Under the pieces are notes generated by a model that was given only the letters and a program-made list of their open reading frames with translations, made no database searches and had not been told where the DNA came from. Positions 2,863 through 18,805 of a stretch of DNA of 64,000 nucleotides are shown here, in pieces (position 1 is the stretch's first letter; the number at the start of each line of letters is the position of its first letter). Both the position numbers and the translations under genes were made by a program. Source of the DNA: a virus (Duplodnaviria > Caudoviricetes); IMG/VR virus record IMGVR_UViG_3300037067_015039, positions 32,001 through 96,000 of that record; one strand, written 5' to 3'.

Positions 2863-2938
2863 TGGTAGACCCAGGCAGATTCGAACTGCCGTCCGCGGAG
2901 CGAAAGTCCGCTATCCTAGACCGCTAGACGATGGGTCC
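2863..2938 (-). tRNA. tRNA-Glu(UUC)
   Basis: Full cloverleaf GGACCCA/UGGGUCU, anticodon loop CUUUCGC, T loop UUCGAAU, encoded ACCA. Confidence 0.93.
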
Positions 2939-2940
2939 CC

Positions 2941-3018
2941 GCCGGCAAATCCCACTAACAGGCGCGTACCAGATTCGCAATGTTCCGGTTTGCCACGCCT
3001 GCCGGAGGATCCGCCGGC
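2941..3018 (-). ncRNA. Long GC-rich hairpin immediately upstream of tRNA-Glu
   Basis: GCCGGC/GCCGGC, GGAUCC/GGAUUU, GGCAGGCGUG/CGCGCCUGUU, ACCGGA/UCUGGU nested pairings. Confidence 0.4.
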
Positions 3019-3031
3019 CCATAAAACATTT

Positions 3032-3469
3032 TTAATAAACAGGCATTATTGGGACATTCAATCCTCCAGCCTGACATATCTGAACAAATTCATTCCACTT
3101 CTGTTTTACTTCCTCTGGATGAGCTATCATCCAGGCGATAAGAACTAAGCTAGATAATCCCAAGCTTCCTTTAATGAAATTCTTAAAACTAGATAATAGA
3201 CCTTCACCTCCTCCTGGAAGTTCGCTGCCGGCAGGCCATGTGAACGGAGCCATAATGCCTGGGATTATAGGATCAAATGCTCCGGCTAGATAAGCGGCAT
3301 GAGGTTCCTGTTGTTCAGGAATTTCGCAAGTACCATCATGGAGGCATTGGCCTACTGTGAATGGTATCTCTCCAGCCGAATACATATCGTCAATCCAATC
3401 GGCTTTCGCTGTCGTGGGAACAATAACCAACAAAATGATGCTCACAATCAGACACAAAAGATTTTTCAT
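3032..3469 (-). CDS. Secreted/membrane hypothetical protein
   Basis: Signal peptide (AKA cleavage-like) and C-terminal hydrophobic helix; GGAG RBS. Confidence 0.7.
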   Translation of the reverse strand: MKNLLCLIVSIILLVIVPTTAKADWIDDMYSAGEIPFTVGQCLHDGTCEIPEQQEPHAAYLAGAFDPIIPGIMAPFTWPAGSELPGGGEGLLSSFKNFIKGSLGLSSLVLIAWMIAHPEEVKQKWNEFVQICQAGGLNVPIMPVY

Positions 3470-3512
3470 AAAAACTCTCCAGGAAAATTGTTTACTTCTA
3501 CGGACCCACTCT

Positions 3513-3600
3513 TGGCGGAGGGTGAGAGACTCGAACTCCCATGCCGTTTACGGCGTCGGGTTTCAGGCCCGAGGCGATACCAGTTCCGCTACAACCCTCC
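3513..3600 (-). tRNA. tRNA-Ser(UGA), atypical (C33)
   Basis: GGAGGGU/ACCCUCC-GCCA, long variable arm GCCGUAAACGGC, anticodon loop CCUGAAA. Confidence 0.85.
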
Positions 3601-3601
3601 G

Positions 3602-3802
3602 TTATTTTTCACTATCAATATCAGTCTTTTTGACAACTTCAGTTAAGCATACAATTGGGAATTCGTCATTCTGAGGCAGCATTCCCGAATTACACCAGAC
3701 GCATTTGGCGCGATCACCATTAACGATCCCTTCTATGGTCATAACGGGGCCGCCGCTGTTAAGTTGAACTGTTTTACCTACTTGTGCCACATTAGCTTCC
3801 AT
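3602..3802 (-). CDS. DUF2158/YodC-like protein
   Basis: VGKTVQLNSGGPVMTIE...CVW motif. Confidence 0.8.
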   Translation of the reverse strand: MEANVAQVGKTVQLNSGGPVMTIEGIVNGDRAKCVWCNSGMLPQNDEFPIVCLTEVVKKTDIDSEK

Positions 3803-3814
3803 TTAATTCCTCCT

Positions 3815-4132
3815 TTAAAGACCTTTTGTTAACCCGGGCTGCTTCATTTGGTCGGGATGTTCTTCGGTGAATTTATTAAATCGTTGGATAGCTTCGTCCA
3901 CCATCCTCATTTGATGATCGTTGCATCCATCTGCGATACAGATATCACGATAGGCTTGGATCCCTTTCACTGCATTCCAGTCTCGACCCCGGTAAATAAA
4001 AATAGGTTCTTCATCGAGAATAGGGATTCTGGTTGGAATTTTCACAATAGCAATACGAGTATTGATCGGAAGAGGTATTTCCGCTCCAGTGATTGTATCG
4101 ATTAATGCGACTTCATATTTCCCATCATTCAT
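3815..4132 (-). CDS. Hypothetical phage protein
   Basis: AAGGGA RBS before MNDGKY. Confidence 0.6.
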   Translation of the reverse strand: MNDGKYEVALIDTITGAEIPLPINTRIAIVKIPTRIPILDEEPIFIYRGRDWNAVKGIQAYRDICIADGCNDHQMRMVDEAIQRFNKFTEEHPDQMKQPGLTKGL

Positions 4133-4181
4133 AATTATTCCCTTCGTTGAACTACAGCCGTCTTCCTGGCCAGCGAAAATT

Positions 4182-4676
4182 TTATTCAATAACCAATTCC
4201 CTGAAATCATGCAGGGAAGATTGGTCTACAAACCAACATGGCGGCCGTCCATTCGGAGCCTCGTTTGATCCAGACTTCTTGCCTTCTTTCCCTAATATCC
4301 ATCCGATTATTTCGTAATTTCCGCATGATCCGATTACCAGAACGTACTTGTAGTCATCCCTGTCATTGGATCTTATAATAAGCCTCTTCCTCTTATTTCC
4401 CTTGTCGCTTACCCATCGGACCTCAATATCAGGGGGAACGTCAGCGCCACCCTTAAATTTGTCTACGCTAAAATCCCAATATCGATGAGATACCTTCGCT
4501 ACGGCTAGTTCGCAAATGGCACCCTCGATGTCAGTTGCCCATGTATCCATATCAACATCGTAGCCTCCAAACGGAGATACTCCCCTGGCAATTTGGTTTA
4601 ATTTTCTTCTGATGCCAATAATAGCCGCAGGCATCATCTCTCCGGGAGGTATTTTAATAGGAATTGATTTTGACAT
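4182..4676 (-). CDS. Hypothetical phage protein (possible nuclease-like fold)
   Basis: GAGG RBS; EGAICELAVAK...D...IEVRW pattern. Confidence 0.65.
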   Translation of the reverse strand: MSKSIPIKIPPGEMMPAAIIGIRRKLNQIARGVSPFGGYDVDMDTWATDIEGAICELAVAKVSHRYWDFSVDKFKGGADVPPDIEVRWVSDKGNKRKRLIIRSNDRDDYKYVLVIGSCGNYEIIGWILGKEGKKSGSNEAPNGRPPCWFVDQSSLHDFRELVIE

Positions 4677-4687
4677 TTTCCCTCATC

Positions 4688-4761
4688 TGGTTAGGGCGGC
4701 TGGATTCGAACCAGCGTACCCGGATCCAAAGTCCGGTGCCAGGCCGCTTGGCTACGCCCCA
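4688..4761 (-). tRNA. tRNA-Gln(UUG)
   Basis: UGGGGCG/CGCCCUA-ACCA, anticodon loop CUUUGGA. Confidence 0.93.
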
Positions 4762-4764
4762 ATA

Positions 4765-4983
4765 TTATTCATCTTCCCCTGAAGAAGCGACGTAAAAATT
4801 AGCTTCTCCTTTGGGACAGTTTTCTCTCATAAGAACGAGACAGCGCCTAACACTAGCTCCAGAGGTCCCAAAACTTTCCGTCTCATTCCCGCACCTAGAA
4901 CATGTAGCCGTGATACCATCAACTTCTATCCCCTCTTCATTTTCTAGGGTTGTCTCCTGGATGTCACATTCTACTTGAGCCAT
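4765..4983 (-). CDS. Small Cys-containing hypothetical protein
   Basis: GAGG RBS before MAQVEC; CSRC and C..C. Confidence 0.7.
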   Translation of the reverse strand: MAQVECDIQETTLENEEGIEVDGITATCSRCGNETESFGTSGASVRRCLVLMRENCPKGEANFYVASSGEDE

Positions 4984-5000
4984 AATTATCCTCGTCAATT

Positions 5001-5077
5001 TGGTAGGGGAGGCGAGATTTGAACTCGCGCATTTCATGATCCCAAATCATGAGCCTTCCCAACTTGGCCACTCCCCT
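5001..5077 (-). tRNA. tRNA-Pro(UGG)
   Basis: AGGGGAG/CUCCCCU-ACCA, anticodon arm CAUGA-UUUGGGA-UCAUG, T loop UUCAAAU. Confidence 0.9.
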
Positions 5078-5435
5078 ATGTTTCAATTTTTATTCTTCCT
5101 GAATGTATTTTCCTGTGACAATTTGAGCAAACAGGTATGCATTTATCTATTTCAGCTAAGATTCTCTCGATTCCCCACCCTTTAATAAAAACAATAGTTG
5201 ATATTTCCGCATCTTTTTTTGTTGGATCTTTGTGGTGAAATTCTATGCATTCAGGAGCAGACTCAGGACACAACTTGCAAATAAGACCGGATTTGTAATT
5301 CTTTATCCATTCCTTAAGTGCCCTTTTTCTTTTCATAGACTTAGCTATAGATACCTTTTGATTCCGATGATACCAATCCCTTCTATGCTTTCTAACTTTT
5401 TCCTGATTATTTTTTCTCCATAATTCAGTAGGCAT
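5076..5435 (-). CDS. HNH endonuclease
   Basis: CKLC...EFHHKDP...KCIPVCSNCHRKIH. Confidence 0.85.
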   Translation of the reverse strand: MPTELWRKNNQEKVRKHRRDWYHRNQKVSIAKSMKRKRALKEWIKNYKSGLICKLCPESAPECIEFHHKDPTKKDAEISTIVFIKGWGIERILAEIDKCIPVCSNCHRKIHSGRIKIET

Positions 5436-5478: not shown

Positions 5479-5712
5479 CTAATCCTTTGGCGCGGCTGGC
5501 AGAATATAGAAATTGCGCCATTCCCCGCAATTTACACCAAACAAAATATCTTGGTTTTTCCAGACTTCCAGCCGGCCATTAATTTCACTAACTGTAATCT
5601 GGTTTGCATGCGCAATTTCCTGCGAACTACCGTCTCGGAAAAAAATCCGAACTGCCTTATTCCCTTTAATCTGATATTCCCTTAAAAGCTTCGATTCTGA
5701 GATTTCGCTCAT
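5479..5712 (-). CDS. Hypothetical protein
   Basis: GGAGG RBS before MSEISE. Confidence 0.6.
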   Translation of the reverse strand: MSEISESKLLREYQIKGNKAVRIFFRDGSSQEIAHANQITVSEINGRLEVWKNQDILFGVNCGEWRNFYILPAAPKD

Positions 5713-6004
5713 CCATTGCCGCCTCCACGGCTTTCTCGACGTCCGCAAGTTGTCCAAGACGACGAGACACTTCCACCTTATGCCAATGTTTAAAAGTAAC
5801 AGAATTGACCATACGTTCTAATGCTGCTTTTTTGTTTTGAGCTTGAGATCTGAATTCGCGTCCTTCGCCAAAAGCGCCAGACGCTATATGCGTGATGCGG
5901 ACTCCGTTTTGATTGGAGTTTTGATGCTGGCCGCCAGGGCCACCTGTGCAGAAGGTGGCAATTTTGAAATCCTTTTTTGTCAGACTAAATAAAAGTTTTC
6001 TCAT
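5666..6004 (-). CDS. Class I release-factor-like GGQ protein (ArfB/PrfH-type peptidyl-tRNA hydrolase domain)
   Basis: TGGPGGQHQN..NGVRITHIASG...RSQAQNKKAA; no codon-recognition domain. Confidence 0.88.
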   Translation of the reverse strand: MRKLLFSLTKKDFKIATFCTGGPGGQHQNSNQNGVRITHIASGAFGEGREFRSQAQNKKAALERMVNSVTFKHWHKVEVSRRLGQLADVEKAVEAAMDERNLRIEAFKGISD

Positions 6005-6027: not shown

Positions 6028-6059
6028 GGCGGAGCCAACTGCAATTCATTGGCTCCGCC
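6028..6059 (-). terminator. 11-bp GC hairpin after Ro60 operon genes (terminator or processing site)
   Basis: GGCGGAGCCAA/TTGGCTCCGCC; weak U-tract. Confidence 0.4.
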
Positions 6060-6069
6060 GCGGTGAGGG

Positions 6070-6384
6070 TTACTGACCCTTGAGTTGCTCTTCAAGACGA
6101 GCGATTTCGTCCTTGAGAGCTTGACGCTTCTCTTCGGCAGGCAGAAGAGCTTCCAACCGGGATTTCTTTTCACGAAGCATCTTTTGCAACCGATCAGCCT
6201 GGCTCAGGGAGATTTCCTTACGGATATCACGCATCTTAGCATCGAGCCATTCAGGCTGCTCGACATTGAGGGTTTTGAACTCTTCCTGAATCATACGTCC
6301 GACTGCGGACAGAGTTACAAGATCCTCCAGGGCAAGACCCTCGGTTTCGAACTTCCGAATCTCGTCTATCAAATACATCGACAT
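6070..6384 (-). CDS. Helical/coiled-coil protein following Ro60-like gene
   Basis: AAGGAGG RBS before MSMYL; heptad-rich C-terminus. Confidence 0.75.
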   Translation of the reverse strand: MSMYLIDEIRKFETEGLALEDLVTLSAVGRMIQEEFKTLNVEQPEWLDAKMRDIRKEISLSQADRLQKMLREKKSRLEALLPAEEKRQALKDEIARLEEQLKGQ

Positions 6385-6400
6385 AATCTGACCTCCTTTC

Positions 6401-7927
6401 TTAGTCTTCTTGATTGCCATCACTGAACGCCTCCGACAATTTCAAAAGTGGAGTTGCCATAATCTCATCCACCAAAGAGTAGGGATTGGTCCGCATGCTT
6501 TGGACCAGGTTTGGTATACTGTAATAATCGATATCAATACCGAGTTCAAAAACTTGCAAATCAAACCCGTTCTTCTTCATGCTCTCGGCAAATTCCTGAT
6601 CTCCCCATCCCCTGTTTTCAGCCCCACAACGATAGAAATAAACGGGGATATCCTTATCTGCAACCTGCAAAAGGCGCCGGTATTCATCGGAAAAAAATGG
6701 AGGAGAATTCTCCAGACCATCTGAGACGATCGCAATTCCGTCAATCTCAATATGACTCAACATAGCCGATCTCAATCCGCAACCAATGGAAGTCCCTCCA
6801 TTAGCATTGACATTCCGGGTCTTCTTCAAAATTTCTTCATAGCCAAACCCGGTGACATCAATCATTAACGGAGTCTGATCGAAGAAAGTAAGGGTAACGC
6901 TTCCCTTAACCATCTTCGCCAAAGTTCCCGCCACATGTCTGGAAGCCTCGATGCATTGAGACATTGATCCCGACTTATCACCGAGAATCAGCCAATTGCC
7001 CTCAATGCTCATATTCTGAATCTGCTTCTCCTGGACTGCATGGAGCTTGGCTTTCAGTTTTTCATCCCCAATCGCTTCCGCGGCGCGGGTAGTCTTCAAG
7101 ACGTTTTTCTTAGAAACAGCCGCCCGTTTAAGAGCATCCTCAAAAGCAGCACGAAGCGCCGGAACTTCTTTGACGCCCAATTTCTCCAGCATTTTAGTGC
7201 TGGTGACGACTTCTGTCGGGCTCATACGCTCAATAAGCGCAAGAACTAAATCAGGATCCTTTATTTTATTTCCGAGCGCCCCATGTGCTATCAAGAACGG
7301 GATCTTCCGTTCAAGAATGGTTCCCGCGGCTTCTTTTGAACTCATATTCCGCAGGTTTGCGACTGCCTCAAAAATGCTTCCTTTAGGAAGAGGAGATCTG
7401 ACCGGCTGCCGGCCTTCCGCTTTTGCTTTCAATCTTTCTTCCAGGGTGTGTCCAAAGAGAACGATATTCACCCGATCAGAGCCAGGTTTGACATCAGCTA
7501 GGGAATAGAGTTCCTTGAGAACCGCACGGTGCTGGATCGCGGTGAAATCCCATTTCTTACCTTCCTTCATGTGGAGGTAATCCGCAATCACCCTTTTGAG
7601 TTGGCGAATATGGCCAAGCGGCCGGACATCCAGAGCGAATCGATACGCCTTCAACAACTCCCGTGGATTCAGGAAAGTCAAATGAGCAAGACTGTTCTCG
7701 ACAAGTTCTTGCGGAAATCCAGGAACCGTTAAACTGACGATAGGCAATGCCGCCTTCGCATCCCTAATCTGGCCATGGGTACGATCCCAAGCAATAAGAT
7801 GAGCCAGAAAATCAGGTTCATTCTGAGCCGCAAGCTGTCCTATTGCGAGGTATTCACGGAGTTTCCCATGAGGAGATTTCGTGAGTTCTGAGATAATTTG
7901 GTTCTTGGTTACTTTGACCTTTTCCAT
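6401..7927 (-). CDS. Ro60/TROVE-like RNA-binding protein (helical ring + C-terminal vWA)
   Basis: 508 aa; N-terminal helical region (EPDFLAHLIAWDRTHGQIRD), vWA MIDAS DKSGS, GGTSIG, IVSDGLEN; adjacent tRNA-like RNA array. Confidence 0.75.
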   Translation of the reverse strand: MEKVKVTKNQIISELTKSPHGKLREYLAIGQLAAQNEPDFLAHLIAWDRTHGQIRDAKAALPIVSLTVPGFPQELVENSLAHLTFLNPRELLKAYRFALDVRPLGHIRQLKRVIADYLHMKEGKKWDFTAIQHRAVLKELYSLADVKPGSDRVNIVLFGHTLEERLKAKAEGRQPVRSPLPKGSIFEAVANLRNMSSKEAAGTILERKIPFLIAHGALGNKIKDPDLVLALIERMSPTEVVTSTKMLEKLGVKEVPALRAAFEDALKRAAVSKKNVLKTTRAAEAIGDEKLKAKLHAVQEKQIQNMSIEGNWLILGDKSGSMSQCIEASRHVAGTLAKMVKGSVTLTFFDQTPLMIDVTGFGYEEILKKTRNVNANGGTSIGCGLRSAMLSHIEIDGIAIVSDGLENSPPFFSDEYRRLLQVADKDIPVYFYRCGAENRGWGDQEFAESMKKNGFDLQVFELGIDIDYYSIPNLVQSMRTNPYSLVDEIMATPLLKLSEAFSDGNQED

Positions 7928-7950
7928 GACGGTTCTCCCTTTTAGTTAAA

Positions 7951-8030
7951 TCACTGGAAGTCGATTGGCTTGTTATGCCGAAAAGCAGGCATCATGTGTT
8001 CAAGACATGTAAGCTAATCAGTACCAGTGA
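7951..8030 (-). ncRNA. Scaffold RNA unit 1 (Y-RNA-like), payload = anticodon-like hairpin (CUUGAAC) + second hairpin
   Basis: UCACUGG-UACUG-AUUAGCUU-ACAUG...AAGCCAAU-CGACUU-CCAGUGA. Confidence 0.75.
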
Positions 8031-8037
8031 AACTTTA

Positions 8038-8129
8038 TTGCGGAAAGTCGGTCGGCTCTTGGTTGACTAAGGACTTTACATCCTCCGCCTATGTTTTTAA
8101 GGAACATGTAAGCCAATCAGTATCCGCAA
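8038..8129 (-). ncRNA. Scaffold RNA unit 2, payload = two 7-nt-loop hairpins
   Basis: UUGCGGA-UACUG-AUUGGCUU-ACAUG...GAGCCGAC-CGACUU-UCCGCAA. Confidence 0.75.
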
Positions 8130-8137
8130 AACTTTTC

Positions 8138-8213
8138 GTCCCATGTGCTATAGGCGCTGCGTCGTTTTAGCCCTGTTATGCCTAATTTGGGCCACTCAGA
8201 CAGCACATGGGAC
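8138..8213 (-). ncRNA. Pseudoknot-capable structured RNA A
   Basis: Perfect 12-bp closing stem; inner GGCCC/GGGCU; loop UAGGC complementary to downstream GCCUA. Confidence 0.55.
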
Positions 8214-8217
8214 TTCC

Positions 8218-8291
8218 GATGGTCCCCACTACGGCTCTTATAGCCCCAATCCTCGAACCTTGGGTGGGTGTTGCCGGGCTATCCGACCATC
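8218..8291 (-). ncRNA. Pseudoknot-capable structured RNA B
   Basis: GAUGGUC/GACCAUC closing stem; AUAGCCC/GGGCUAU; loop GGC and CCCAC complementary to downstream GCC and GUGGG. Confidence 0.55.
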
Positions 8292-8298
8292 TAAAATC

Positions 8299-8433
8299 TG
8301 GCTGCAAAGTCGATTCCGGAGTTGTCATGTTGCCCTACCATTGGGCGAATCCGGCATAAGGTGGAGCCGGATTCTGGATTCGAACCAGAACACTCATTGC
8401 TGAGTTCATGTAACCGTTTTCAGTGTGCAGCCA
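8299..8433 (-). ncRNA. Scaffold RNA unit 3, YrlA-like permuted tRNA payload (T arm, acceptor, D arm)
   Basis: T arm UCUGG-UUCGAAU-CCAGA, acceptor AUCCGGC-UCCA-CCUUAU-GCCGGAU, D arm GCCC-AAUGGUA-GGGC inside scaffold. Confidence 0.85.
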
Positions 8434-8445
8434 TATAATTTGGGC

Positions 8446-8500
8446 GGGTGTCATTCATCCCCCCGGGGAGATTCCCACATGGCCAATGCAGTAGACACCC
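8446..8500 (-). ncRNA. Degenerate scaffold unit
   Basis: GGGUGUC/GACACCC stem, UACUG and CAUG retained, CGACUU lost. Confidence 0.4.
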
Positions 8501-8510
8501 ATAATTTTTC

Positions 8511-8666
8511 TGGCCTTTAAGTCGATCAGCCTATTTTTCTGCGCGTTTACCATTTACGCCATTGCCCCATAATAAAGTTAAGGCGGGGCAAGAAGGATTC
8601 GAACCTCCAATTTCGGTTTCCCGAAAACAGGACCCTAAGTCATGTAAGCTATTCAGTAAAAGGCCA
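8511..8666 (-). ncRNA. Scaffold RNA unit 4, permuted tRNA-Leu(UAG)-like payload
   Basis: GA-CUUAGGG-UCCUG, long variable arm, T arm, UUGCCCC...GGGGCAA acceptor, Leu-type D arm, then CAG. Confidence 0.85.
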
Positions 8667-8687
8667 TAATCTTTTCAAAGATCTGGA

Positions 8688-8808
8688 AGAGTCTGCAACG
8701 CCTTGGAGCCTGTAATATAATTCCGCAACTAATTCAGGATCCACGTTAGTCCGAATCGCTTGCTCTGGTAGCCAAGAGGCAGTGTGTTTTTACCTGGACT
8801 CAGACTCT
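8688..8808 (-). ncRNA. 121-nt multibranch structured RNA
   Basis: AGAGUCUG/CAGACUCU closing stem enclosing AGUCC/GGACU and AACG-UGGA-CCUG/CAGG-UCCA-CGUU arms. Confidence 0.5.
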
Positions 8809-8900
8809 ATAATCCGGGGGGCTCTTGGGACGCTATCCACTTTGAGCCCCTATTCAAAATGCCCTCAATATGGGCGTTTAGTATTTTATGGCTGTAAGCC

Positions 8901-8931
8901 GTTTCAATCCACGCCTCACAACGGAAGCGAC
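8901..8931 (-). CRISPR. Solitary type I-C-like CRISPR repeat (not an array)
   Basis: GTCGCTTCCGTTGTGAGGCGTGGATTGAAAC: GTCGC start, 6-bp hairpin, GCGTGGATTGAAAC end typical of I-C repeats. Confidence 0.7.
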
Positions 8932-9052
8932 TTGGCTGTAAGTCGAATGAGGATCATTTGTGTTCGATACCCATCGACCCCCCCATACTATTTTTGTGGA
9001 GGGGGGCGCCTGCGAGGCGCTACGCATGTAGCCTCAAAACAGTAACAGCCAA
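8932..9052 (-). ncRNA. Scaffold RNA unit 5, degenerate permuted tRNA/tmRNA-like payload
   Basis: UUGGCUGU-UACUG...CUACAUG...GCGCC hairpin, CCCCCUCCA-linker-GGGGGGG, UCGAU/AUCGA...CGACUU-ACAGCCAA. Confidence 0.7.
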
Positions 9053-9059
9053 ACTCTAA

Positions 9060-9242
9060 TCCCTGTGGTCCGGACAACTCACTCCCAAGTACCCCGGATT
9101 CCCGGATTGCAAGATCATAGTCAGAAAACAAAATCGGCTTGCCCCTTGGAGTCGGTCTCTTGCCAATTTCTGCTATGTGTATCCACGGGCGCTAATCCCT
9201 TGCTGTGTTGGGGCGATGGCTCTCACGCCAATGCCACAGGGA
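9060..9242 (-). ncRNA. 183-nt structured RNA directly downstream of HNH gene
   Basis: UCCCUGUGG/CCACAGGGA closing stem; inner CAUAG-CAGAAA/UUUCUG-A-CUAUG and UUGGC/GCCGA. Confidence 0.55.
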
Positions 9243-9246
9243 AAAT

Positions 9247-9819
9247 CTACTTGATTACCCGCTTTGCGAGATAATCAACAAACTTATTAGGATCCATCCC
9301 GCGCTCTGCGCACCAGATAAACGGATCCTGCGAACCTTTATCCTTGTTGCATGATTTGCAGGACGTCAGATAGTTCGAAGTATTATTCTTCTTTTCGTCC
9401 ATTTCGAGAGGGATGAAGTGATCAATCGTCATAAGAGCTTCACCCATCTTTTTCCCGCAATACATGCATTTGAAACCATCGGCCGCCCAAACCTTTTGTT
9501 GGATCGAGCCTGATATTTCATATCTCACCTTTCGTTGGAAGATCTTGGGGTTTCCAACAAGTATTTCCGGATCATCAGAGCGGTGAATGAAATCAGACCA
9601 TTCTTCTACTGTAAGTTCTCTCCATTCGCTATAAGCACATATATCCATGCCATTATTATTGGCTCGGTTAAGAACTCCAGGAAGGGCCAGAATCATGCTC
9701 GAACCACCCCCTGTAAGAAGAATGCCACTAATCTTAACCAGTGACCCGATATCCCCATACATAACCGGGCGATTTCGCATTTCCATCAAATAAAACCGAT
9801 CACCGCTACTCTTGGCCAT
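9247..9819 (-). CDS. HNH endonuclease with unknown N-terminal domain, embedded in RNA array
   Basis: DGFKCMYCG...LMTIDHFIP...NYLTSCKSCNKDKG; GAGG RBS. Confidence 0.85.
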   Translation of the reverse strand: MAKSSGDRFYLMEMRNRPVMYGDIGSLVKISGILLTGGGSSMILALPGVLNRANNNGMDICAYSEWRELTVEEWSDFIHRSDDPEILVGNPKIFQRKVRYEISGSIQQKVWAADGFKCMYCGKKMGEALMTIDHFIPLEMDEKKNNTSNYLTSCKSCNKDKGSQDPFIWCAERGMDPNKFVDYLAKRVIK

Positions 9820-9836
9820 CTCTACCTCTTAAAAAC

Positions 9837-9968
9837 TGGCGTCAAGTCGATATGCTTTATTTCGCGCTCTAACCAGACTGAGCTACCCGGACGCATACGC
9901 GCCCGGGGTTGGATTCGAACCAACGACCTCGGCATTGGAATTGCATGTAAGCCTACCAGTGAACGCCA
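9837..9968 (-). ncRNA. Scaffold RNA unit 6, permuted tRNA payload with UCC (Gly) anticodon loop
   Basis: GCA-AUUCCAA-UGCCG-AGGUC, T arm, CCCGGGC-GCGUAUGC-GUCCGGG, D arm GCUC-AGUCUGGUUA-GAGC, G, CG. Confidence 0.85.
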
Positions 9969-9982
9969 TTACTATAATTGCT

Positions 9983-10109
9983 GTTCCCTGAAAGTCGCTC
10001 AGCTTTTTAAGGATTGAATAATCGGATTTGAACCGATCACACACTGATTTAAATTCAGTTGCTCTACCAAATGAGCTATATTCATGTACGCTGAACAGTG
10101 TCAGGGAAC
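9983..10109 (-). ncRNA. Scaffold RNA unit 7, whole tRNA-like payload with UUA anticodon
   Basis: GAAUA-UA-GCUC-AUUUGGUA-GAGC-A-ACUGA-AUUUAAA-UCAGU-GUGUG-AUCGG-UUCAAAU-CCGAU-UAUUCAA inside scaffold. Confidence 0.85.
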
Positions 10110-10117
10110 GTATTTTA

Positions 10118-10525
10118 TTAATTTTGCTGGATCAAACACCATAACCCTTTTTTTCGCTCGACTCTCGGGGTTTTCCTTTTCGACTCTTTATGAAGTGTAC
10201 TATAAAGAGTTTGAATTGGGTTTTTCCCCTGGACCTGATGACCTGATTCAGTCAATCGGTCCAAAAGAGCCGGCGTCCTAATAGGGCCGCCTGTGCTTAT
10301 AATTTCGATGGCCGCGCCTATGATGGATATTGGTCCCTCAACTTTCGAATCAGGTCCCGGCTGCGGTACTGGCGTTTCCTGTGGAGATCGTTCCACGTCT
10401 GAAAGGAAATAATCGATCTCGGAGAGTAAAGCGCCAATGCGATTCTTCTCTTTAATCAGTTCTTCCTTTAGGGAGACTGCCTTCTCTTTTATTGCTGCCA
10501 TTCCTGAATTCGTAAGTGTCATCAT
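10118..10525 (-). CDS. Coiled-coil + winged-HTH protein (HARE-HTH-like)
   Basis: AAIEII...GPIRTPALLDRL...GKNPIQTLYSTL...GLWCL pattern. Confidence 0.6.
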   Translation of the reverse strand: MMTLTNSGMAAIKEKAVSLKEELIKEKNRIGALLSEIDYFLSDVERSPQETPVPQPGPDSKVEGPISIIGAAIEIISTGGPIRTPALLDRLTESGHQVQGKNPIQTLYSTLHKESKRKTPRVERKKGLWCLIQQN

Positions 10526-10549
10526 AACCGCTACCTTTTGAGCTTGACC

Positions 10550-10578
10550 AATTTACTTCTGGTTATATTCTATGTCAA
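10550..10578 (-). promoter_or_regulatory. Sigma70-type promoter upstream of wHTH / RNA array / Ro60 unit
   Basis: TTGACA-17 nt-TAAATT. Confidence 0.55.
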
Positions 10579-15007: not shown

Positions 15008-16276
15008 TTATTCCTTATTGATGACTTTATTAAGATGCGTATTCCCAAACGAAAGATACCTCACCGGAATCCCGGGCGCAATTTCCGACAAACCATTTAC
15101 CACAGAATTTGCCTGACGAAGCCCATAGGAATAATCCTTATGGTTTACCATAATTTCTTTGCTGATTTCGCGCAATTGTTCGAATGGCCGGCTTCGATAA
15201 CAATCAGCATAAATCCAGCGTTTTTGTTCTTTGAGAATATCCATATGGGTTATGGCCAATTCGTCCACTTTGCCAACAACACTGAGAGCGTATTTGAACG
15301 CTGGCACATCGAAATACCCTCTTCTCAAATCCCCCTGCCACTGATTATTTATGTTATGTTCCGGCTGCACATCAAATCCGTGGACATTCAGATCTTCGCT
15401 TTCTGTGACAAATGGGCCTGCGCCATGCCTGGTGAAATAGGTTCGAACCACCCCAATGGTTGTTATGTCTAATTTATCGGTCGCCCCATAGTGATTGATA
15501 ATCTCAAAGGCGTTATTGAACGTACAATCCGTCCAGGTGACGTGATTCCCAAACCCGTGGGTCTCGTCCAGCAGGACTCCCTGAGCGCCTTCAAAGACAA
15601 TTGCATTCGGCAAACTATTCCTGATGTCATAAAACGTGCCAACTTTAATTTGTTGGAGCCAATCTTTGTAGAAATTTCTAACGTCTACCGGAGTTTCATT
15701 CTGCATTAGATCGTAAAGATTTTGGGTTTCTTTGCTATTGATAAATTTCTTGCATTGCCGAAGTTTTGTTTCTTTTATCCATTCCAGTCTTTCAATCGAA
15801 TGAGGACATGGAATATCCGAGACCTCGAGAGATAGCCCATCTAACTGATCTGCCCGGGTTTCCCCAACTCCCATTCCGCAGGATCCGTGTCTATCTTTTC
15901 CTCGAGACATTTCTTTGAGTCTGTTTGCTCTCCAATGCCAGGGAGTGACAATAACACTCTTGGGGTTTATTAGTAGGCGCTCAAGCCCATCATAAACTCC
16001 ACTATGTTTCAGTACCACATTCTCAATGAGCATTGAGTAGGGTTCAATAAGCATATATTCCGATAAATAGGTCCGGCACCCGGGGATGAAGGTGCCGGAC
16101 CCAAATTGAGCAAAGGTGTGATGGAGTCCGTCAGGCAACACGACGTTATGCCCTGCCTGCGGACCTCCATTATATCGGACTACCCAATTGGCCTTGTGTT
16201 CCCGGCAAAGAAAATCAACCATCGTTCCTTTGCCCTCATCCCCGAAGGCCAAACCTGCGATAATGAATATTTGCAT
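15008..16276 (-). CDS. Adenylosuccinate synthetase-like protein (divergent PurA family)
   Basis: GDEGKG, RYNGGPQAGH, FEGAQG, RTYFTRHGAGPF; Asp-binding loop altered. Confidence 0.85.
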   Translation of the reverse strand: MQIFIIAGLAFGDEGKGTMVDFLCREHKANWVVRYNGGPQAGHNVVLPDGLHHTFAQFGSGTFIPGCRTYLSEYMLIEPYSMLIENVVLKHSGVYDGLERLLINPKSVIVTPWHWRANRLKEMSRGKDRHGSCGMGVGETRADQLDGLSLEVSDIPCPHSIERLEWIKETKLRQCKKFINSKETQNLYDLMQNETPVDVRNFYKDWLQQIKVGTFYDIRNSLPNAIVFEGAQGVLLDETHGFGNHVTWTDCTFNNAFEIINHYGATDKLDITTIGVVRTYFTRHGAGPFVTESEDLNVHGFDVQPEHNINNQWQGDLRRGYFDVPAFKYALSVVGKVDELAITHMDILKEQKRWIYADCYRSRPFEQLREISKEIMVNHKDYSYGLRQANSVVNGLSEIAPGIPVRYLSFGNTHLNKVINKE

Positions 16277-17343: not shown

Positions 17344-18348
17344 TCAGTTCTTAGGCAAATTTAAAGCGAGAAATTTCGGGGAGCCATATTCCTCTTTAGC
17401 GAGATTGACCCACCGTTCTTGAATGCTCCAGGCATCGTCCGGCCGCGAAGCCGGAGATTCTGTCACACACCATTGAATAAGATCTCGGAAACGCTTTGGC
17501 ACGTTCCCTGCGATAATATTTATGGATTTCATCAACATATAAATATCCGTCCAGGGGCCGGCAGGTCTCTTTTTCATAACCTCTGGAGGGTAGTGCATTG
17601 AATAATCCCGCACAATCGCGGGGATCGATTGACCGGCAGTACAGGAATAACACCAGTCAACAAGCTTTAATCCGTGATCTTTCGGATCATAAAGAAGATG
17701 GCAGGGAAGAACGGCGCCATGAACAACGCCGGAATGATGCGCAAACCCTAAAACGCTGAGCGCCCGGTTCACCATCCAGACTATATGCCGGAAATCCAGG
17801 TTTTCCGCATGCAGGTCGACAATATCCTTGAGAGCGATAAAGGGCTGCTCATGGTGGAGAATATTCACGCGGCGCCCGGAAGCCTTTACTCCCTGAATAA
17901 ATACAGGAAGATACTTTCTGAAATTCTCAGGTTTAGCTTTCCACAGATGATCCAGGGCGATTTTCTCCCGATCCATCAAATCGTTGTCTTTGGGACCGCG
18001 AACGATCTTTAAAATAACATTCGGATCCTTCTCCGATTCAGCACAGTAAAGGTCGCAGATATCTCCCTTTGTAAGCGATTCCGTAACTACGCAGCCGGCT
18101 ATGACAACTTGTGGAGCTTTCGGTTTAGATGTAAACCCGGTGTACAACTCGTTGAGCTTTTTAAAAGCTTCTTCGGATCGTTTCCTATAATCCGGTGGAG
18201 CAACATCAGGGTGGCAGATTCGGGCATACCGGCGAAACCACTTGTCAGGATCCGCACCAGGGTCCAGGAGATCTTTATAGGTTTTGGCGGCTTCAATCGC
18301 TGTTAAATAAGTTTCTAAAGGTTCATGCTTGGCTTTGACGGCAGTCAT
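17344..18348 (-). CDS. J-domain (HPD) fused to protein-kinase-like domain
   Basis: RRYARICHPD; GDICDLY, VILK, HGAVLPCH, LVDW, YPPE, DIYM. Confidence 0.8.
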   Translation of the reverse strand: MTAVKAKHEPLETYLTAIEAAKTYKDLLDPGADPDKWFRRYARICHPDVAPPDYRKRSEEAFKKLNELYTGFTSKPKAPQVVIAGCVVTESLTKGDICDLYCAESEKDPNVILKIVRGPKDNDLMDREKIALDHLWKAKPENFRKYLPVFIQGVKASGRRVNILHHEQPFIALKDIVDLHAENLDFRHIVWMVNRALSVLGFAHHSGVVHGAVLPCHLLYDPKDHGLKLVDWCYSCTAGQSIPAIVRDYSMHYPPEVMKKRPAGPWTDIYMLMKSINIIAGNVPKRFRDLIQWCVTESPASRPDDAWSIQERWVNLAKEEYGSPKFLALNLPKN

Positions 18349-18805
18349 TAGTCCCCTTTCTTTGTTGTTTTTTCTCAAGATCGGCCTTCCTATCGAGTTC
18401 AATTTGATCCACTGTTGTTAATTCTATTTTTTGAATAAAGCTCAAATCGTGGGAAATGAACCAAGAATACATCGGAGCCATTAGCTTATAAACGTCTTTT
18501 TCCCAGATGGACATGGCTTCCACTTTTTTTCCAAGATCTACAACTTTATTCCGAAGGTTATTTATTGCGTCTTCATTTCTCAGGCACAGGGCTTTTAAAT
18601 TAATATTTTCAATCATAAGTTCTTCCATTAAAGGGTTGGGAGAACTACGTGAAGGAAGTCTGTCAATATACCAAGGCCGATTGCATTCTTGTTCCCATCG
18701 CATACGGTCATATCTCAATTTTTGCAATTCTTGATCATATCTCAATTTTTGCAATTCTTGATCATTCCTCTCCAATATCCCTAATGGACCCAATGGACCT
18801 GTCAT
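18323..18805 (-). CDS. Coiled-coil hypothetical protein
   Basis: AGGAG RBS; internal 27-bp duplication. Confidence 0.6.
   Translation of the reverse strand: MTGPLGPLGILERNDQELQKLRYDQELQKLRYDRMRWEQECNRPWYIDRLPSRSSPNPLMEELMIENINLKALCLRNEDAINNLRNKVVDLGKKVEAMSIWEKDVYKLMAPMYSWFISHDLSFIQKIELTTVDQIELDRKADLEKKQQRKGTNDCRQSQA
18708..18764. repeat. 27-bp tandem duplication (encodes DQELQKLRY x2)
   Basis: tcatatctcaatttttgcaattcttga twice. Confidence 0.8.

What the first reader, a model, noticed from the sequence alone, without database searches (positions are those of the whole stretch)
6070..10578. Ro60/TROVE-like gene with an array of seven constant-scaffold, variable-payload RNAs
Seen: on the minus strand, upstream of and co-oriented with a 508-aa helical+vWA protein, seven units (7951-8030, 8038-8129, 8299-8433, 8511-8666, 8932-9052, 9837-9968, 9983-10109; degenerate eighth at 8446-8500) share: variable 7-9 bp outer stem, YACUG, imperfect inner stem, UACAUG, payload, A-rich linker, inner stem, CGACUU, outer stem. 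Stems differ in sequence between units but stay complementary (covariation), while the YACU/GACUU internal loop and UACAUG are invariant. Payloads are all different and mostly tRNA-derived. Established: Ro60/Rsr binds Y RNAs via a conserved terminal helix, and YrlA RNAs carry a T-acceptor-D tRNA mimic. Inference: a modular RNP system in which one phage protein displays a library of interchangeable tRNA mimics; the scaffold 5' strand differs from the GGUCCGA Y-RNA consensus and an array this size with mixed payload architectures is unfamiliar to me. A TTGACA-17-TAAATT promoter (10578-10550), a wHTH gene, an HNH gene and a coiled-coil gene complete a plausible single transcription unit.
Basis: partly seen in the sequence, partly recalled or inferred. 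Interest (0 to 1): 0.95.

Follow-up and report, generated by a model that had tools for sequence, protein, structure and literature searches.

The report
Phage Ro60-like gene with Y-RNA array
An uncultured 109-kb phage carries a distant relative of the Ro60 RNA-binding protein, and just upstream lie seven small RNA genes that share one stem "handle" but each carry a different tRNA look-alike, which is a bigger and more varied form of the known Ro60-Y RNA partnership.

Summary
Seven units on the minus strand (7951-10109) share an outer stem, YACUG, an imperfect inner stem, UACAUG, a payload, the inner stem again, CGACUU and the outer stem. A regex scan and a covariance model (R1) find only these seven in the window, and R1 finds none elsewhere in the 109-kb genome.

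The 508-aa protein has no Pfam TROVE hit. Its family profile does hit solved Ro60 structures (E 3.9e-11) and aligns end to end with a bona fide bacterial Ro60 (hhalign 96%). The vWA half carries that signal; the helical half alone is only suggestive.

In 71 related viral loci, R1 gives 173 hits. All are on the gene's strand, 168 are upstream, and 58 of 71 loci have at least one, up to seven per locus. The stems covary strongly.

No unit reaches Rfam's YrlA threshold, and 0 of 148 units carry YrlA's GNCGAAN0-1G motif. Payloads present tRNA in several topologies, with hypervariable anticodons and encoded N-CCA loops.

A coiled-coil gene and an HNH nuclease gene are conserved partners.

Verdict: a new variant of the Ro60-Y RNA system. 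Binding and function are untested. This scan's first readers noted the same stretch before; their follow-ups were withheld.

The parts
10550..10578 (-). Promoter-like site TTGACA-17-TAAATT at the head of the block
   Evidence: 10 of 12 matches, but site counts in the region are not above shuffles; a TTGAC box stands at the corresponding place upstream of the first ORF in L001, L002, L004 and L005 (4 of 4 examined); the -10-like TAnnnT box about 17 nt on is my reading of the printed sequence.
10118..10525 (-).
   Evidence: Only a weak HARE-HTH hit (E 0.046). Relatives in 6 of 71 loci.
9983..10109 (-). Unit A: the scaffold encloses a normally ordered tRNA-like cloverleaf (D arm, anticodon arm with UUA, T arm, 6-7 bp acceptor)
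   Evidence: R1 46.9 bits. Rfam tRNA 57.1 bits at 10013-10085. ARAGORN calls anticodon tta. Fold z -5.18. In the 24 same-order units aligned, the anticodon triplet is hypervariable while the neighbouring loop positions, which I read as U33 and purine 37, are kept.
9837..9968 (-). Unit B: YrlA-type payload (T arm, closed acceptor-like hairpin, D arm)
   Evidence: Rfam YrlA RF02553, full length, 42.7 bits (gathering 69), E 3.7e-07. R1 37.2 bits.
9247..9819 (-). 190-aa protein: conserved N-terminal domain of about 100 aa plus an HNH nuclease domain; a conserved partner inside the array
   Evidence: Pfam HNH 7.2e-10. Invariant cysteine, aspartate, histidine and asparagine positions across 35 relatives (C118, C121, D133, H134, N149, C154, N158). 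tblastn hits in 33 of 71 loci, by my reading of the list about 28 of them at 46% identity or more. From the HNH side, 25 of 28 viral loci also carry the Ro60-like gene.
9053..9246 (-). Non-coding stretch, mostly an insertion (about 9068-9250) relative to relative L001; a closing stem CCCUGUGG/CCACAGGG
   Evidence: blastn breakpoints. Fold z -1.26, not distinctive.
8932..9052 (-). Unit C: hairpin, then an acceptor-like stem C6-U-CCA...G7, then a hairpin (resembles the tRNA top half)
   Evidence: R1 27.1 bits. Folds. Counterparts in L001, L002, L004, L005, L010, L017 and L026 with, by my reading, covarying hairpins. N-CCA loop class.
8901..8931 (-). 31-nt stretch that looks like a type I-C CRISPR repeat, directly after unit C; not part of the scaffold system
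Evidence: Sequence read. Its end motif occurs in 3 of the 71 related loci, L001, L005 and L019 (L005 and L019 carry identical sequence), plus L072, which is this genome's own copy. The type I-C assignment is from memory, not from a call; Rfam gave no CRISPR-DR hit at E<=10.
8511..8666 (-). Unit D: two hairpins, T arm, closed acceptor-like stem, D-like arm
   Evidence: R1 39.5 bits. Fold. T-arm motif.
8446..8500 (-). Remnant of an eighth unit (closing stem plus UACUG only)
   Evidence: Read. Not found by R1. Fold z -0.49. L001 has a full unit at the matching place, 5200-5337.
8299..8433 (-). Unit E: variable-arm hairpin, T arm, acceptor stem with a U-CCA loop, D arm; CAUG of UACAUG pairs with a 3' CAUG
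   Evidence: R1 19.9 bits. Partial YrlA match, 20.4 bits. Fold z -4.05..
8130..8298 (-). Non-coding gap with a long hairpin; unassigned
   Evidence: Fold z -2.53. No Rfam or R1 hit.
8038..8129 (-). Unit F: scaffold with two small hairpins, no tRNA motifs
   Evidence: R1 63.8 bits (it is in the training set). Fold z -3.27.
7951..8030 (-). Unit G: minimal unit ending 23 nt before the Ro60-like start codon, so it lies in the gene's 5' leader
   Evidence: R1 64.8 bits (it is in the training set). Fold z -3.90. A unit ends within 40 nt of the gene in 13 of 71 loci.
6401..7927 (-). 508-aa Ro60-like protein: helical N-terminal half of about 300 aa plus a Ro60-type vWA domain with a MIDAS motif
   Evidence: Invariant D317, S319, S321, T379 and D403 in 61 diverse relatives. 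No Pfam TROVE hit.
6070..6423 (-). Small coiled-coil protein (117 aa from GTG, or 104 aa from the ATG at 6384 behind AAGGAGG); a conserved downstream partner
   Evidence: tblastn hits in 50 of 71 loci; the 40 hits printed all lie just downstream of the gene. No family found.
6028..6059 (-). 11-bp stem-loop after the coiled-coil stop codon; a possible end of the unit, with no U tail
   Evidence: Read. Not called by the terminator scan.

Best explanation
This is a phage version of the Ro60-Y RNA ribonucleoprotein. The block is probably transcribed from the promoter-like site at 10578. Tightly packed units would then be cut apart at short A/U-rich spacers.

Each small RNA closes its 5' and 3' ends into the same handle: an outer helix, an internal loop (YAC opposite ACUU), an imperfect inner helix, and UACAUG. 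The 508-aa Ro60-like protein binds that handle.

The variable payloads play the part of the effector module of known Y RNAs. They present tRNA shapes in several ways: a whole cloverleaf; the YrlA order T-acceptor-D; in relatives, further circular permutations; and an acceptor/CCA mini-helix. These shapes would bring tRNA-recognising proteins to the ring or titrate them. Candidates are host enzymes and, possibly, the co-encoded HNH nuclease and coiled-coil protein.

Because the module sits inside the phage's tRNA gene island, its likely job is to manage tRNA or structured-RNA turnover during infection. Unit G in the gene's leader may let the protein regulate its own synthesis.

Shown here: homology of the vWA half to Ro60; collinearity with Ro60 over the full length; the scaffold structure and its covariation; strict same-strand co-occurrence; the payload anatomy; and the conserved partners.

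Inferred: binding, processing, the effectors, and the biological role.
For: Protein. The family profile hits Ro60 chains as the top five PDB hits, E 3.9e-11 to 9.9e-05. hhalign against a bacterial protein that itself scores TROVE 2e-37 and vWA_Ro60 6.5e-65 gives 95.95% probability, E 5e-09, aligning 35-469 with 91-532. 7 of 61 relatives hit PF25045 vWA_Ro60. ESM Atlas neighbours include TROVE clusters at 0.95-0.97.

RNA. Unit B aligns over the full length of Rfam YrlA at E 3.7e-07, and that alignment places the 3' ACUU and the UA-containing motif opposite their YrlA counterparts. Covariation is strong.

Linkage. 173 of 173 R1 hits are on the gene's strand, 168 upstream and 5 downstream, in 58 of 71 loci. 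Weaker hits appear in 3 more of the viral loci. There were 0 hits in 660 kb of control loci and none elsewhere in the genome.

Processing. 53 of 91 neighbouring unit pairs are at most 20 nt apart, and their spacers are 75% A+U against 49% for the units.

Payloads. A simple regex finds a T-arm hairpin in 84 of 148 distinct units. N-CCA opens an acceptor-like loop in 32 of 148, against a shuffled mean of 4.6 and maximum of 8. In the 24 same-order units aligned, the loop positions either side of the anticodon are conserved while the triplet varies freely.

Context. Free tRNA genes flank the gene in 54 of 71 loci, and 421 of 435 are on the gene's strand.

Precedent. Y RNAs are modular, with a Ro-binding stem plus an effector module. 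YrlA mimics tRNA and lies within 4 kb of Ro60 on the same strand (PMC4201824 and bioRxiv 10.1101/312249, passages read). Thermus phage phiLo Ro60 binds two upstream Y-like RNAs and host PNPase (PMC12135203, abstract and passages read).
Against: Pfam TROVE finds nothing in the protein or in the whole genome at E<=10, although the control genomes respond. None of 61 relatives hits TROVE at E<=0.01.

The N-terminal 300 aa alone give no PDB hit at E<=10 and only 7-8% hhalign probability (P 0.004-0.005), though in the same register. The ring fold is therefore unproven.

The 5' strand that Ro60 contacts in known Y RNAs (GGUCCGA or GNCGAAN0-1G) is absent in 0 of 148 units.

13 of 71 loci have no R1 hit at E<=0.01; 2 of them have almost no upstream DNA.

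No expression or binding data exist for this system. The phage encodes no RtcB, CCA-adding enzyme or RNA ligase, so no known Ro60-linked repair partner is at hand.

The reverse co-occurrence test was weak. Only 6 exact-pattern matches were found in IMG/VR, 4 on contigs with the gene and 2 on 2.7-2.8 kb fragments without it.
Confidence: 0.7

Rival explanations
1. Anti-defence decoys. The units are stable tRNA look-alikes that soak up host tRNA-targeting defence nucleases such as anticodon nucleases. The Ro60-like protein would merely stabilise or protect them. The hypervariable anticodon loops would track different host nucleases.
For: In the 24 same-order units aligned, the anticodon triplet is the most variable part of the tRNA-like body, while the neighbouring loop positions, which I read as U33 and purine 37, and the D and T arms are kept. 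The module sits among phage tRNA genes. Encoded N-CCA ends are enriched. That phage tRNAs counter tRNA-cleaving defences is my recollection; no paper on this was read here.
Against: By the regex, 49 of 148 units, including F and G, have none of the three tRNA motifs. No defence nuclease or target is identified. The idea does not explain the conserved HNH and coiled-coil partners. It overlaps the main reading rather than excluding it.
Confidence: 0.15
2. tRNA production cassettes. The scaffold is a processing or maturation signal, and the payloads are released as working tRNAs, including permuted ones and an ochre suppressor.
For: Unit A's payload scores as a full tRNA at 57.1 bits. ARAGORN calls tRNAs inside 22 units across the 71 loci. 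Seven payloads in 11 related loci match the Rfam tRNA model from position 1 to 71. M. smegmatis YrlA is cut by RNase P and receives CCA (PMC4201824, passage read).
Against: Near-identical bodies carry unrelated anticodons: UUA here, UGA in L001 and L004, GAA in L002, UUC in L005. UGA comes without the long variable arm that tRNA-Ser needs (recalled knowledge). Several counterparts lack an acceptor stem, with Rfam matches covering only 5-66 or 7-64 of 71 positions. Most units are closed-loop permutations or have no tRNA features. The window's genes read normally under table 11, so a suppressor has no evident use.
Confidence: 0.07
3. Coincident neighbours. The scaffold is bound by something else or is only an RNA-processing or stability element of the tRNA island. 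The vWA protein would then be an unrelated helical-plus-vWA protein that happens to be syntenic.
For: The helical half is not significantly TROVE-like on its own. The known Ro-contact motif is absent. 13 of 71 loci lack R1 hits.
Against: The vWA domain is about nine orders of magnitude closer to Ro60 than to any other solved vWA domain. One unit is recognisably YrlA-like. All 173 hits are on the gene's strand, and most lie within about 2.4 kb of the gene. The last unit abuts the gene's ribosome-binding site in 13 loci.
Confidence: 0.08

Closest known systems
Bacterial and mycobacteriophage Rsr (Ro60) with YrlA/YrlB Y RNAs (Chen et al. 2014, PMC4201824; Rfam RF02553)
   Same: A Ro60-type protein with small RNAs encoded just upstream on the same strand. 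A terminal stem made by the 5' and 3' ends, carrying an internal loop. A tRNA-like effector module in the order T arm, closed acceptor hairpin, D arm (units B, D, E). A conserved 3' ACUU and a UA-containing motif that line up with YrlA.
   Different: No unit reaches the Rfam threshold; the best scores 42.7 of 69 bits. GNCGAAN0-1G is replaced by YACUG (0 of 148 units carry it). There are up to 7 units per locus, where the passages read describe 'at least two' in Salmonella and M. smegmatis and four small RNAs in D. radiodurans. Payloads also include whole cloverleaves with anticodon arms, other permutations and non-tRNA hairpins, whereas YrlA 'lacks the anticodon loop' and 'lacks a free CCA end' (bioRxiv 10.1101/312249). 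The protein is not recognised by Pfam TROVE.
Thermus phage phiLo Ro60 with Yrl1 and Yrl2 (PMC12135203; PDB 9KOP, 9L5Y)
   Same: A phage-encoded Ro60 homologue with Y-like RNAs upstream. It is among the PDB hits of this family's profile at E 1.4e-07.
   Different: phiLo has two RNAs, which were found through a CGAA motif. This locus has seven units with a different motif, plus conserved HNH and coiled-coil partners.
Deinococcus radiodurans Rsr-Yrn1-PNPase (RYPER)
   Same: The working model: the Y RNA stem binds the ring, and the other module tethers a nuclease.
   Different: PNPase is a host exoribonuclease and is not operon-linked. Here the linked nuclease candidate is an HNH protein whose role and substrate are unknown. 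Rsr is only a weak hit (2nvo, 9.9e-05).
Phage tRNA gene arrays
   Same: Tandem, same-strand, closely spaced tRNA-shaped genes within a tRNA island. HNH endonuclease genes inside phage tRNA clusters are known (recalled, not from a call).
   Different: Each unit is enclosed in a covarying constant scaffold. Most are closed-loop permutations. Anticodons are not conserved between counterpart units.

Membership tests
Ro60 / TROVE protein family | Match to the Pfam TROVE domain (PF05731) | tested here: not met
   No hit at E<=0.1 for the protein. 0 of 61 relatives hit at E<=0.01. A six-frame search of the whole 109-kb genome finds nothing at E<=10, while the D. radiodurans and B. thetaiotaomicron controls respond.
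Ro60 / TROVE protein family | C-terminal Ro60-type vWA domain with a MIDAS motif | tested here: met
   The C-terminal block alone against a bacterial Ro60: hhalign 95.2%, E 2.7e-08. PF25045 vWA_Ro60 is hit by 7 of 61 relatives, best 2.1e-05. D317, S319, S321, T379 and D403 are invariant. In the printed alignment DxSxS lines up with Ro60's DVSASM.
Ro60 / TROVE protein family | Full-length collinear similarity to solved or bona fide Ro60 | tested here: met
   The profile matches 9nen over 89-434 against 122-513 at E 3.9e-11, and the top five PDB hits are all Ro60. hhalign 95.95% over 394 columns.
Ro60 / TROVE protein family | N-terminal HEAT-repeat (TROVE) half recognisable on its own | tested here: inconclusive
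   The N-terminal profile A5 gives no PDB hit at E<=10. hhalign gives 8.3% (E 0.0041) and 7.2% (P 0.005), but in the same register as the full-length alignment.
Ro60 / TROVE protein family | Ring-shaped fold with a central cavity | not testable with these tools
The ESM Atlas holds no model of this protein.
YrlA (Rfam RF02553) | Score at or above the Rfam gathering threshold (69 bits) | tested here: not met
   Unit B scores 42.7 bits and unit E 20.4 bits (partial); the other five units have no hit at E<=10. No YrlA hit at gathering in 11 related loci, 127,780 bases.
YrlA (Rfam RF02553) | 5' motif GNCGAAN0-1G (Chen et al. 2014) | tested here: not met
   0 of 148 distinct units carry it in their first 30 nt.
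YrlA (Rfam RF02553) | tRNA-like module in the order T arm, closed acceptor stem, D arm | tested here: met
   Met for units B, D and E. Not met for A (normal tRNA order), C, F or G.
YrlA (Rfam RF02553) | Encoded within 4 kb of the Ro60 gene on the same strand | tested here: met
   All 7 units lie 24-2182 nt upstream of the gene on its strand. 173 of 173 hits in relatives are on the gene's strand.
Y RNA (general definition) | [quoted passage not shown] | tested here: met
   Covariation. Folds.
Y RNA (general definition) | Bound by Ro60 in vivo or in vitro | not testable with these tools
   This needs RIP or EMSA.
tRNA (unit A payload) | Cloverleaf above the Rfam tRNA threshold with a decoding identity that is conserved among counterparts | tested here: not met
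   The cloverleaf scores 57.1 bits against a gathering score of 29. The anticodon differs in nearly every counterpart unit, and several counterparts lack the acceptor stem.

The most novel reading that the evidence does not exclude
A widespread module of uncultured soil phages may be a new kind of RNP platform. A Ro60-like ring, a dedicated HNH nuclease and a coiled-coil partner would use a library of up to seven interchangeable tRNA-mimic adaptors: every circular permutation of tRNA, encoded CCA ends and fast-changing anticodon loops. The adaptors would capture tRNA-directed host enzymes or defence nucleases, or aim the nuclease at particular tRNAs. That would be tRNA mimicry used as a modular, evolvable targeting or decoy system rather than a single Y RNA tether.
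Probability: 0.2. Interest if true: 0.85.

Novelty: new variant of a known kind. Interest (0 to 1): 0.7.

Why it matters
What bacterial and phage Ro60-Y RNA particles do is still largely open, and the effector that recognises the tRNA-like module of YrlA is unknown (bioRxiv 10.1101/312249, passages read).

This family offers a natural experiment. It has one constant handle, many different tRNA presentations that are conserved as slots across phages, and two genetically linked candidate partners, an HNH nuclease and a coiled-coil protein.

The protein family is large: at least 874 proteins and 545 clusters at 50% identity. Pfam TROVE does not recognise it. GenBank phages hold only 2 weak tblastn matches among 50,697 records. 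Current annotation therefore misses a whole branch of Ro60 biology.

The scaffold model also gives a handle for annotating these RNAs in metagenomes. At present they are partly miscalled as tRNAs, including 'suppressor' tRNAs.

Tried and rejected
I used sequence profiles instead.
- The single protein and the closer-relative profile A1 gave no Ro60 hit in the PDB. Only the diverse profile A3 did.
- The N-terminal-only profile failed.
- A second bacterial TROVE protein (L201) aligned only over the vWA region, at 85%.
- The 595-kb uncultured phage hit (LR756511) is a member of the same family (hhalign 100%) and also lacks a TROVE hit, so it is no bridge to canonical Ro60.

Suppressor tRNA. I rejected this reading of unit A because the anticodon is not conserved between counterpart units.

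RNA repair context. None was found: RtcB, PF01743 and PF09414 are absent from the genome.

Neighbouring ORFs. Pfam scans of 20 neighbouring ORFs gave nothing that bears on the RNP.

Reverse co-occurrence. This serves as a specificity control only. The stricter pattern gave just 6 stretches.

Other dead ends.
- The gaps between units have no Rfam or R1 hit and only modest fold z-scores.
- The coiled-coil protein has no family and no Atlas hit.

Literature. Seven searches found no paper that describes Ro60-linked arrays of this size, this scaffold motif, or a TROVE-HNH linkage. The two Sim/Wolin reviews were not held.

Full report
WHAT IS THERE

The window is part of a 109,212-base virus record that CheckV rates complete. 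On the minus strand between 10578 and 6028 lies a compact block. In order it holds:
- a promoter-like site;
- a 135-aa ORF;
- units A and B;
- a 190-aa HNH protein;
- about 190 nt of non-coding DNA;
- unit C;
- about 265 nt of non-coding DNA;
- unit D, a remnant, and unit E;
- about 170 nt of non-coding DNA;
- units F and G;
- a 508-aa protein;
- a small coiled-coil protein, and a stem-loop.

A regex for the shared motifs, run on both strands, returns exactly the seven units. Each has its own complementary 7-9 bp closing stem. The hexamers alone are not enriched in the window.

THE SCAFFOLD IS A REAL, CONSERVED RNA STRUCTURE

I built covariance model R1 from 16 short units. Two came from the window and 14 from related loci. 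It models 16 base pairs: the outer helix, the U-G and G-C pairs formed by the UG of YACUG with the CG of CGACUU, and the inner helix.

R1 finds all seven window units, five of which it had never seen, and nothing else in 64 kb at E<=10. Nothing outside the array turns up in the whole genome (that pipeline found 5 of the 7).

Covariation is strong.
- In the 16 training units the outer helix has 7 of 7 pairs with changes on both sides and 96.4% of cells paired. 0 of 500 shuffles reach the observed score, and slid controls pair at 48% or less.
- In 148 distinct units, 90.5% of cells pair, against 56.0% in shuffles and at most 49.4% when slid. 755 cells show a change on both sides, against 222 in shuffles. 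That alignment was fitted to the model, which favours the structure.

The single-stranded letters are nearly invariant among the 148 units: A of YAC in 148/148, UACA in 148/148, then U in 124 and C in 24, then G in 147. On the 3' side the counts are C 134, G 143, A 147, C 134, U 131 and U 114. These units were selected by the model.

THE PROTEIN

Alone, the protein matches nothing but a weak vWA family, plus a weak hit to PHROG 850, 'RNA-binding protein' (E 0.0026).

It belongs to a large family of proteins about 490-510 aa long: 874 hits among the 8000 candidates scored, and 545 clusters at 50% identity.

A profile of 61 diverse relatives hits Ro60 as its five best PDB matches:
- human 9nen, 3.9e-11;
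- Xenopus 1yvp, 3.8e-09;
- Thermus phage phiLo 9l5y and 9kop, 1.4e-07;
- Deinococcus Rsr 2nvo, 9.9e-05.
The alignment covers 346 profile positions. The next hit is an unrelated vWA domain at 0.012.

Against a bacterial protein that is itself a clear Ro60 (TROVE 2e-37, vWA_Ro60 6.5e-65), hhalign gives 95.95% probability, E 5e-09, over 394 collinear columns.

Splitting the profile shows where the signal lies. The vWA half alone gives 95.2% (E 2.7e-08). The helical half alone gives 7-8% (P about 0.005), though in the same register, and it has no PDB hit at E<=10.

Pfam's TROVE model sees nothing in this protein, in 61 relatives, or in the six-frame genome. The MIDAS residues are invariant.

I therefore call it a Ro60-like protein whose vWA domain is demonstrably of the Ro60 type. 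Its helical half is probably, but not provably here, a divergent TROVE ring.

LINKAGE OF RNA AND PROTEIN

I fetched 71 IMG/VR loci that encode relatives at 38-88% identity. R1 gives 173 hits there at E<=0.01.
- All 173 are on the gene's strand.
- 168 are upstream and 5 are downstream; all 5 downstream hits are in L065.
- 58 of 71 loci have at least one hit.
- Loci by number of hits: 0 hits, 13 loci; 1 hit, 12; 2 hits, 16; 3 hits, 12; 4 hits, 7; 5 hits, 6; 7 hits, 5.
- Some of the 71 loci are duplicates. After I dropped 8 duplicate loci, 50 loci plus the window gave 148 distinct units.

Of the 13 loci without a hit, 2 have almost no upstream DNA, and 3 more (L054, L037, L015) show weaker same-strand upstream hits. 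Two of five MAG loci also have strong same-strand upstream hits (L074 and L076); a third (L073) has only weak ones.

As a control, 80 unrelated viral loci (659,890 bases) that contain the linear motif string gave 0 R1 hits.

A stricter exact pattern found 6 stretches in all of IMG/VR. Four lie on contigs that carry the gene. Two lie on 2.7-2.8 kb fragments with weak 15-bit hits and no gene. This reverse test is small.

RELATION TO KNOWN Y RNAs

Unit B aligns over the whole Rfam YrlA model (42.7 bits, E 3.7e-07), below the gathering score of 69. Unit E aligns in part (20.4 bits). The other five units have no Y-RNA-family hit at E<=10. In 11 related loci, nothing reaches the YrlA or Y_RNA gathering scores.

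In the alignment, the 3' ACUU and the outer stem line up with YrlA's. The UAC of UACAUG falls at YrlA's conserved CUAc. Chen et al. describe a conserved YUAY there, and Wang et al. describe a conserved UA that kinks the stem (PMC4201824 and bioRxiv 10.1101/312249, passages read). Mapping our UA onto theirs is my inference.

The published 5' motif GNCGAAN0-1G is absent from all 148 units. So these are relatives of YrlA-type Y RNAs with a different protein-facing 5' strand, matching a divergent protein.

PAYLOADS

In the window:
- A encloses a cloverleaf in normal order, with anticodon UUA.
- B is in the YrlA order: T arm, closed acceptor hairpin, D arm.
- C is a hairpin, then an acceptor-like C6-U-CCA...G7 stem, then a hairpin.
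- D and E are in the YrlA order with extra hairpins. E's acceptor loop begins U-CCA.
- F and G have two small hairpins and no tRNA motif.

By my reading of the sequences, relatives add further orders: T-acceptor-D-anticodon arm (for example L001 5350-5493) and anticodon arm-T-acceptor (L001 5200-5337). The scaffold can thus replace, in turn, the acceptor end, the anticodon loop, the variable region or the D arm.

A simple regex finds a T-arm hairpin in 84 of 148 distinct units. 49 units have none of the three motifs sought. My D-arm pattern was too strict.

Hairpins with at least 6 bp whose loop starts N-CCA occur in 32 of 148 units, against a mean of 4.6 and a maximum of 8 in 50 payload shuffles. 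CCA is the commonest triplet at that place.

In 24 normal-order units, the D arm, the T loop and the loop positions that flank the anticodon (by my reading U33, purine 37 and A38) are conserved, while the anticodon triplet is almost random. The acceptor stem is present in some units and absent in others (partial tRNA matches). That argues against decoding tRNAs and for mimicry.

Published YrlAs 'lack a free CCA end' and 'lack the anticodon loop' (bioRxiv 10.1101/312249), so these payload classes go beyond what is described there.

ORGANISATION AND PARTNERS

Units are often packed closely. 53 of 91 neighbouring pairs are at most 20 nt apart, and their spacers are 75% A+U with 7% C, against 49% A+U in the units. 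This fits co-transcription and endonucleolytic separation, which is an inference.

Unit G ends 23 nt before the start codon, just ahead of AAGGGAG. A unit ends within 40 nt of the gene in 13 of 71 loci. This suggests, but does not show, autoregulation.

The coiled-coil protein has tblastn hits in 50 of 71 loci, and the 40 hits printed all lie directly downstream of the Ro60-like gene. The HNH protein is found on the same strand upstream in 33 of 71 loci; by my reading of the list about 28 are at 46% identity or more, and the HNH identities track those of the Ro60-like protein. The 135-aa ORF, the 148-aa ORF and the RF-1-domain protein are each found in only 6 of 71 loci.

The HNH family is conserved over its whole length, including an N-terminal domain of about 100 aa with no known family. 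It has 212 proteins at E<=1e-10.

Starting from the HNH side, 28 viral loci encode full-length relatives.
- 22 are contigs already in the Ro60-like set.
- 3 of the 6 new ones have a Ro60-like gene just downstream.
- 3 have none within 5 kb.
- In total, 25 of 28 carry the gene.

A resident homing endonuclease, of the kind known from phage tRNA clusters (my recollection), remains an alternative for the HNH gene.

The module sits in a tRNA island. 54 of 71 loci have free tRNA genes within the flanks, and 421 of 435 are on the gene's strand. The window has four tRNA genes just downstream.

The phage has no RtcB, CCA-adding enzyme or RNA ligase.

WHO CARRIES IT

Among 50,697 GenBank phage records, only 2 give a tblastn match, both at about 26% identity. 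One of them, a 595-kb uncultured phage, encodes a true family member.

In GTDB genomes the gene appears on 5 MAG contigs labelled Acidobacteriota (3), Terrimicrobiaceae (1) and Clostridia (1). This hints at soil hosts, but binning of phage contigs is unreliable.

MECHANISM AND VERDICT

The best reading, at about 0.7, is a Ro60-Y RNA particle in which the constant handle binds the ring and the payloads are effector modules that mimic tRNA.

The rivals are pure decoys, tRNA production cassettes, and coincidental synteny. They are weighed in their own sections.

Phage Ro60 with Y-like RNAs is already known: 22 phages in Chen et al. 2014, and phiLo with two RNAs and PNPase binding (PMC12135203). 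So this is not a new kind of system. It is a new variant, for five reasons:
- a large, unannotated, divergent protein branch;
- a different scaffold motif;
- arrays of up to seven units;
- several tRNA topologies, with variable anticodons and encoded CCA;
- two linked partner genes.

Seven literature searches found no description of these features. Two reviews and all supplementary tables could not be read.

Earlier first-reader notes of this scan on the same stretch exist.

Noticed in passing
window 8889-8947 (minus strand): Directly after unit C lies a 31-nt stretch (8931-8901) that resembles a type I-C CRISPR repeat; that resemblance is from memory. It is followed by a near-copy of unit C's 3' strand (GGCTTACAGCCA against GACTTACAGCCA). 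The same arrangement is in L001. A similar repeat end is in L005 and L019, which carry identical sequence. That makes 3 of the 71 related loci, plus L072, this genome's own copy. No CRISPR-DR Rfam hit. The lead came from earlier notes.
   Followed up: partly
window 9068-9250: About 184 nt are present here but absent from the closest relative, L001, where the alignment jumps from 4619 to 4628. The stretch is closed by CCCUGUGG/CCACAGGG, and its fold z is only -1.26. It may be an inserted small element or a further RNA.
   Followed up: partly
window 5666-6004 (minus strand): A 112-aa RF-1-domain protein (Pfam 2.3e-15, PHROG 3122 5.2e-21), resembling a stand-alone peptidyl-tRNA hydrolase or rescue-factor domain. 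It lies just downstream of the module, and relatives are in only 6 of 71 loci.
   Followed up: partly
window 2863-5077 (minus strand) and the 71 related loci: The Ro60-like module lies inside phage tRNA islands. The window has four tRNA genes here (Glu, Ser, Gln, Pro). The related loci hold 435 free tRNA genes, 421 of them on the gene's strand. ARAGORN also 'tRNAs' inside scaffold units, including Stop, SeC and odd anticodons, which would be mis-annotations.
   Followed up: yes
L035 2069-2358: A phage-encoded permuted tmRNA (Rfam RF04321, 101.2 bits against a gathering score of 47) lies a few kb upstream of that locus's Y-like array.
   Followed up: no
window 15008-16276 (minus strand): A 422-aa adenylosuccinate-synthetase-family protein (Pfam 2.3e-56). 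In a phage this could be a PurZ-type enzyme; that idea is from memory. Nearby are a phage metallopeptidase (14098-14679) and a weak protein-kinase-like ORF (17344-18402).
   Followed up: no
L162 1626-1712 and L196 1544-1630: Two short viral contigs (2.7-2.8 kb) match the exact scaffold pattern but score only about 15 bits with R1. They have no Ro60-like gene in the little DNA available. It is unclear whether they are diverged units or chance matches.
   Followed up: partly
L198 (GenBank LR756511.1, 282714-290216): A 595-kb uncultured phage encodes a distant member of the same protein family (hhalign 100%, 28% identity). It has two tRNA-model hits about 1 kb upstream and no YrlA hit. R1 was not run on this locus.
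   Followed up: partly
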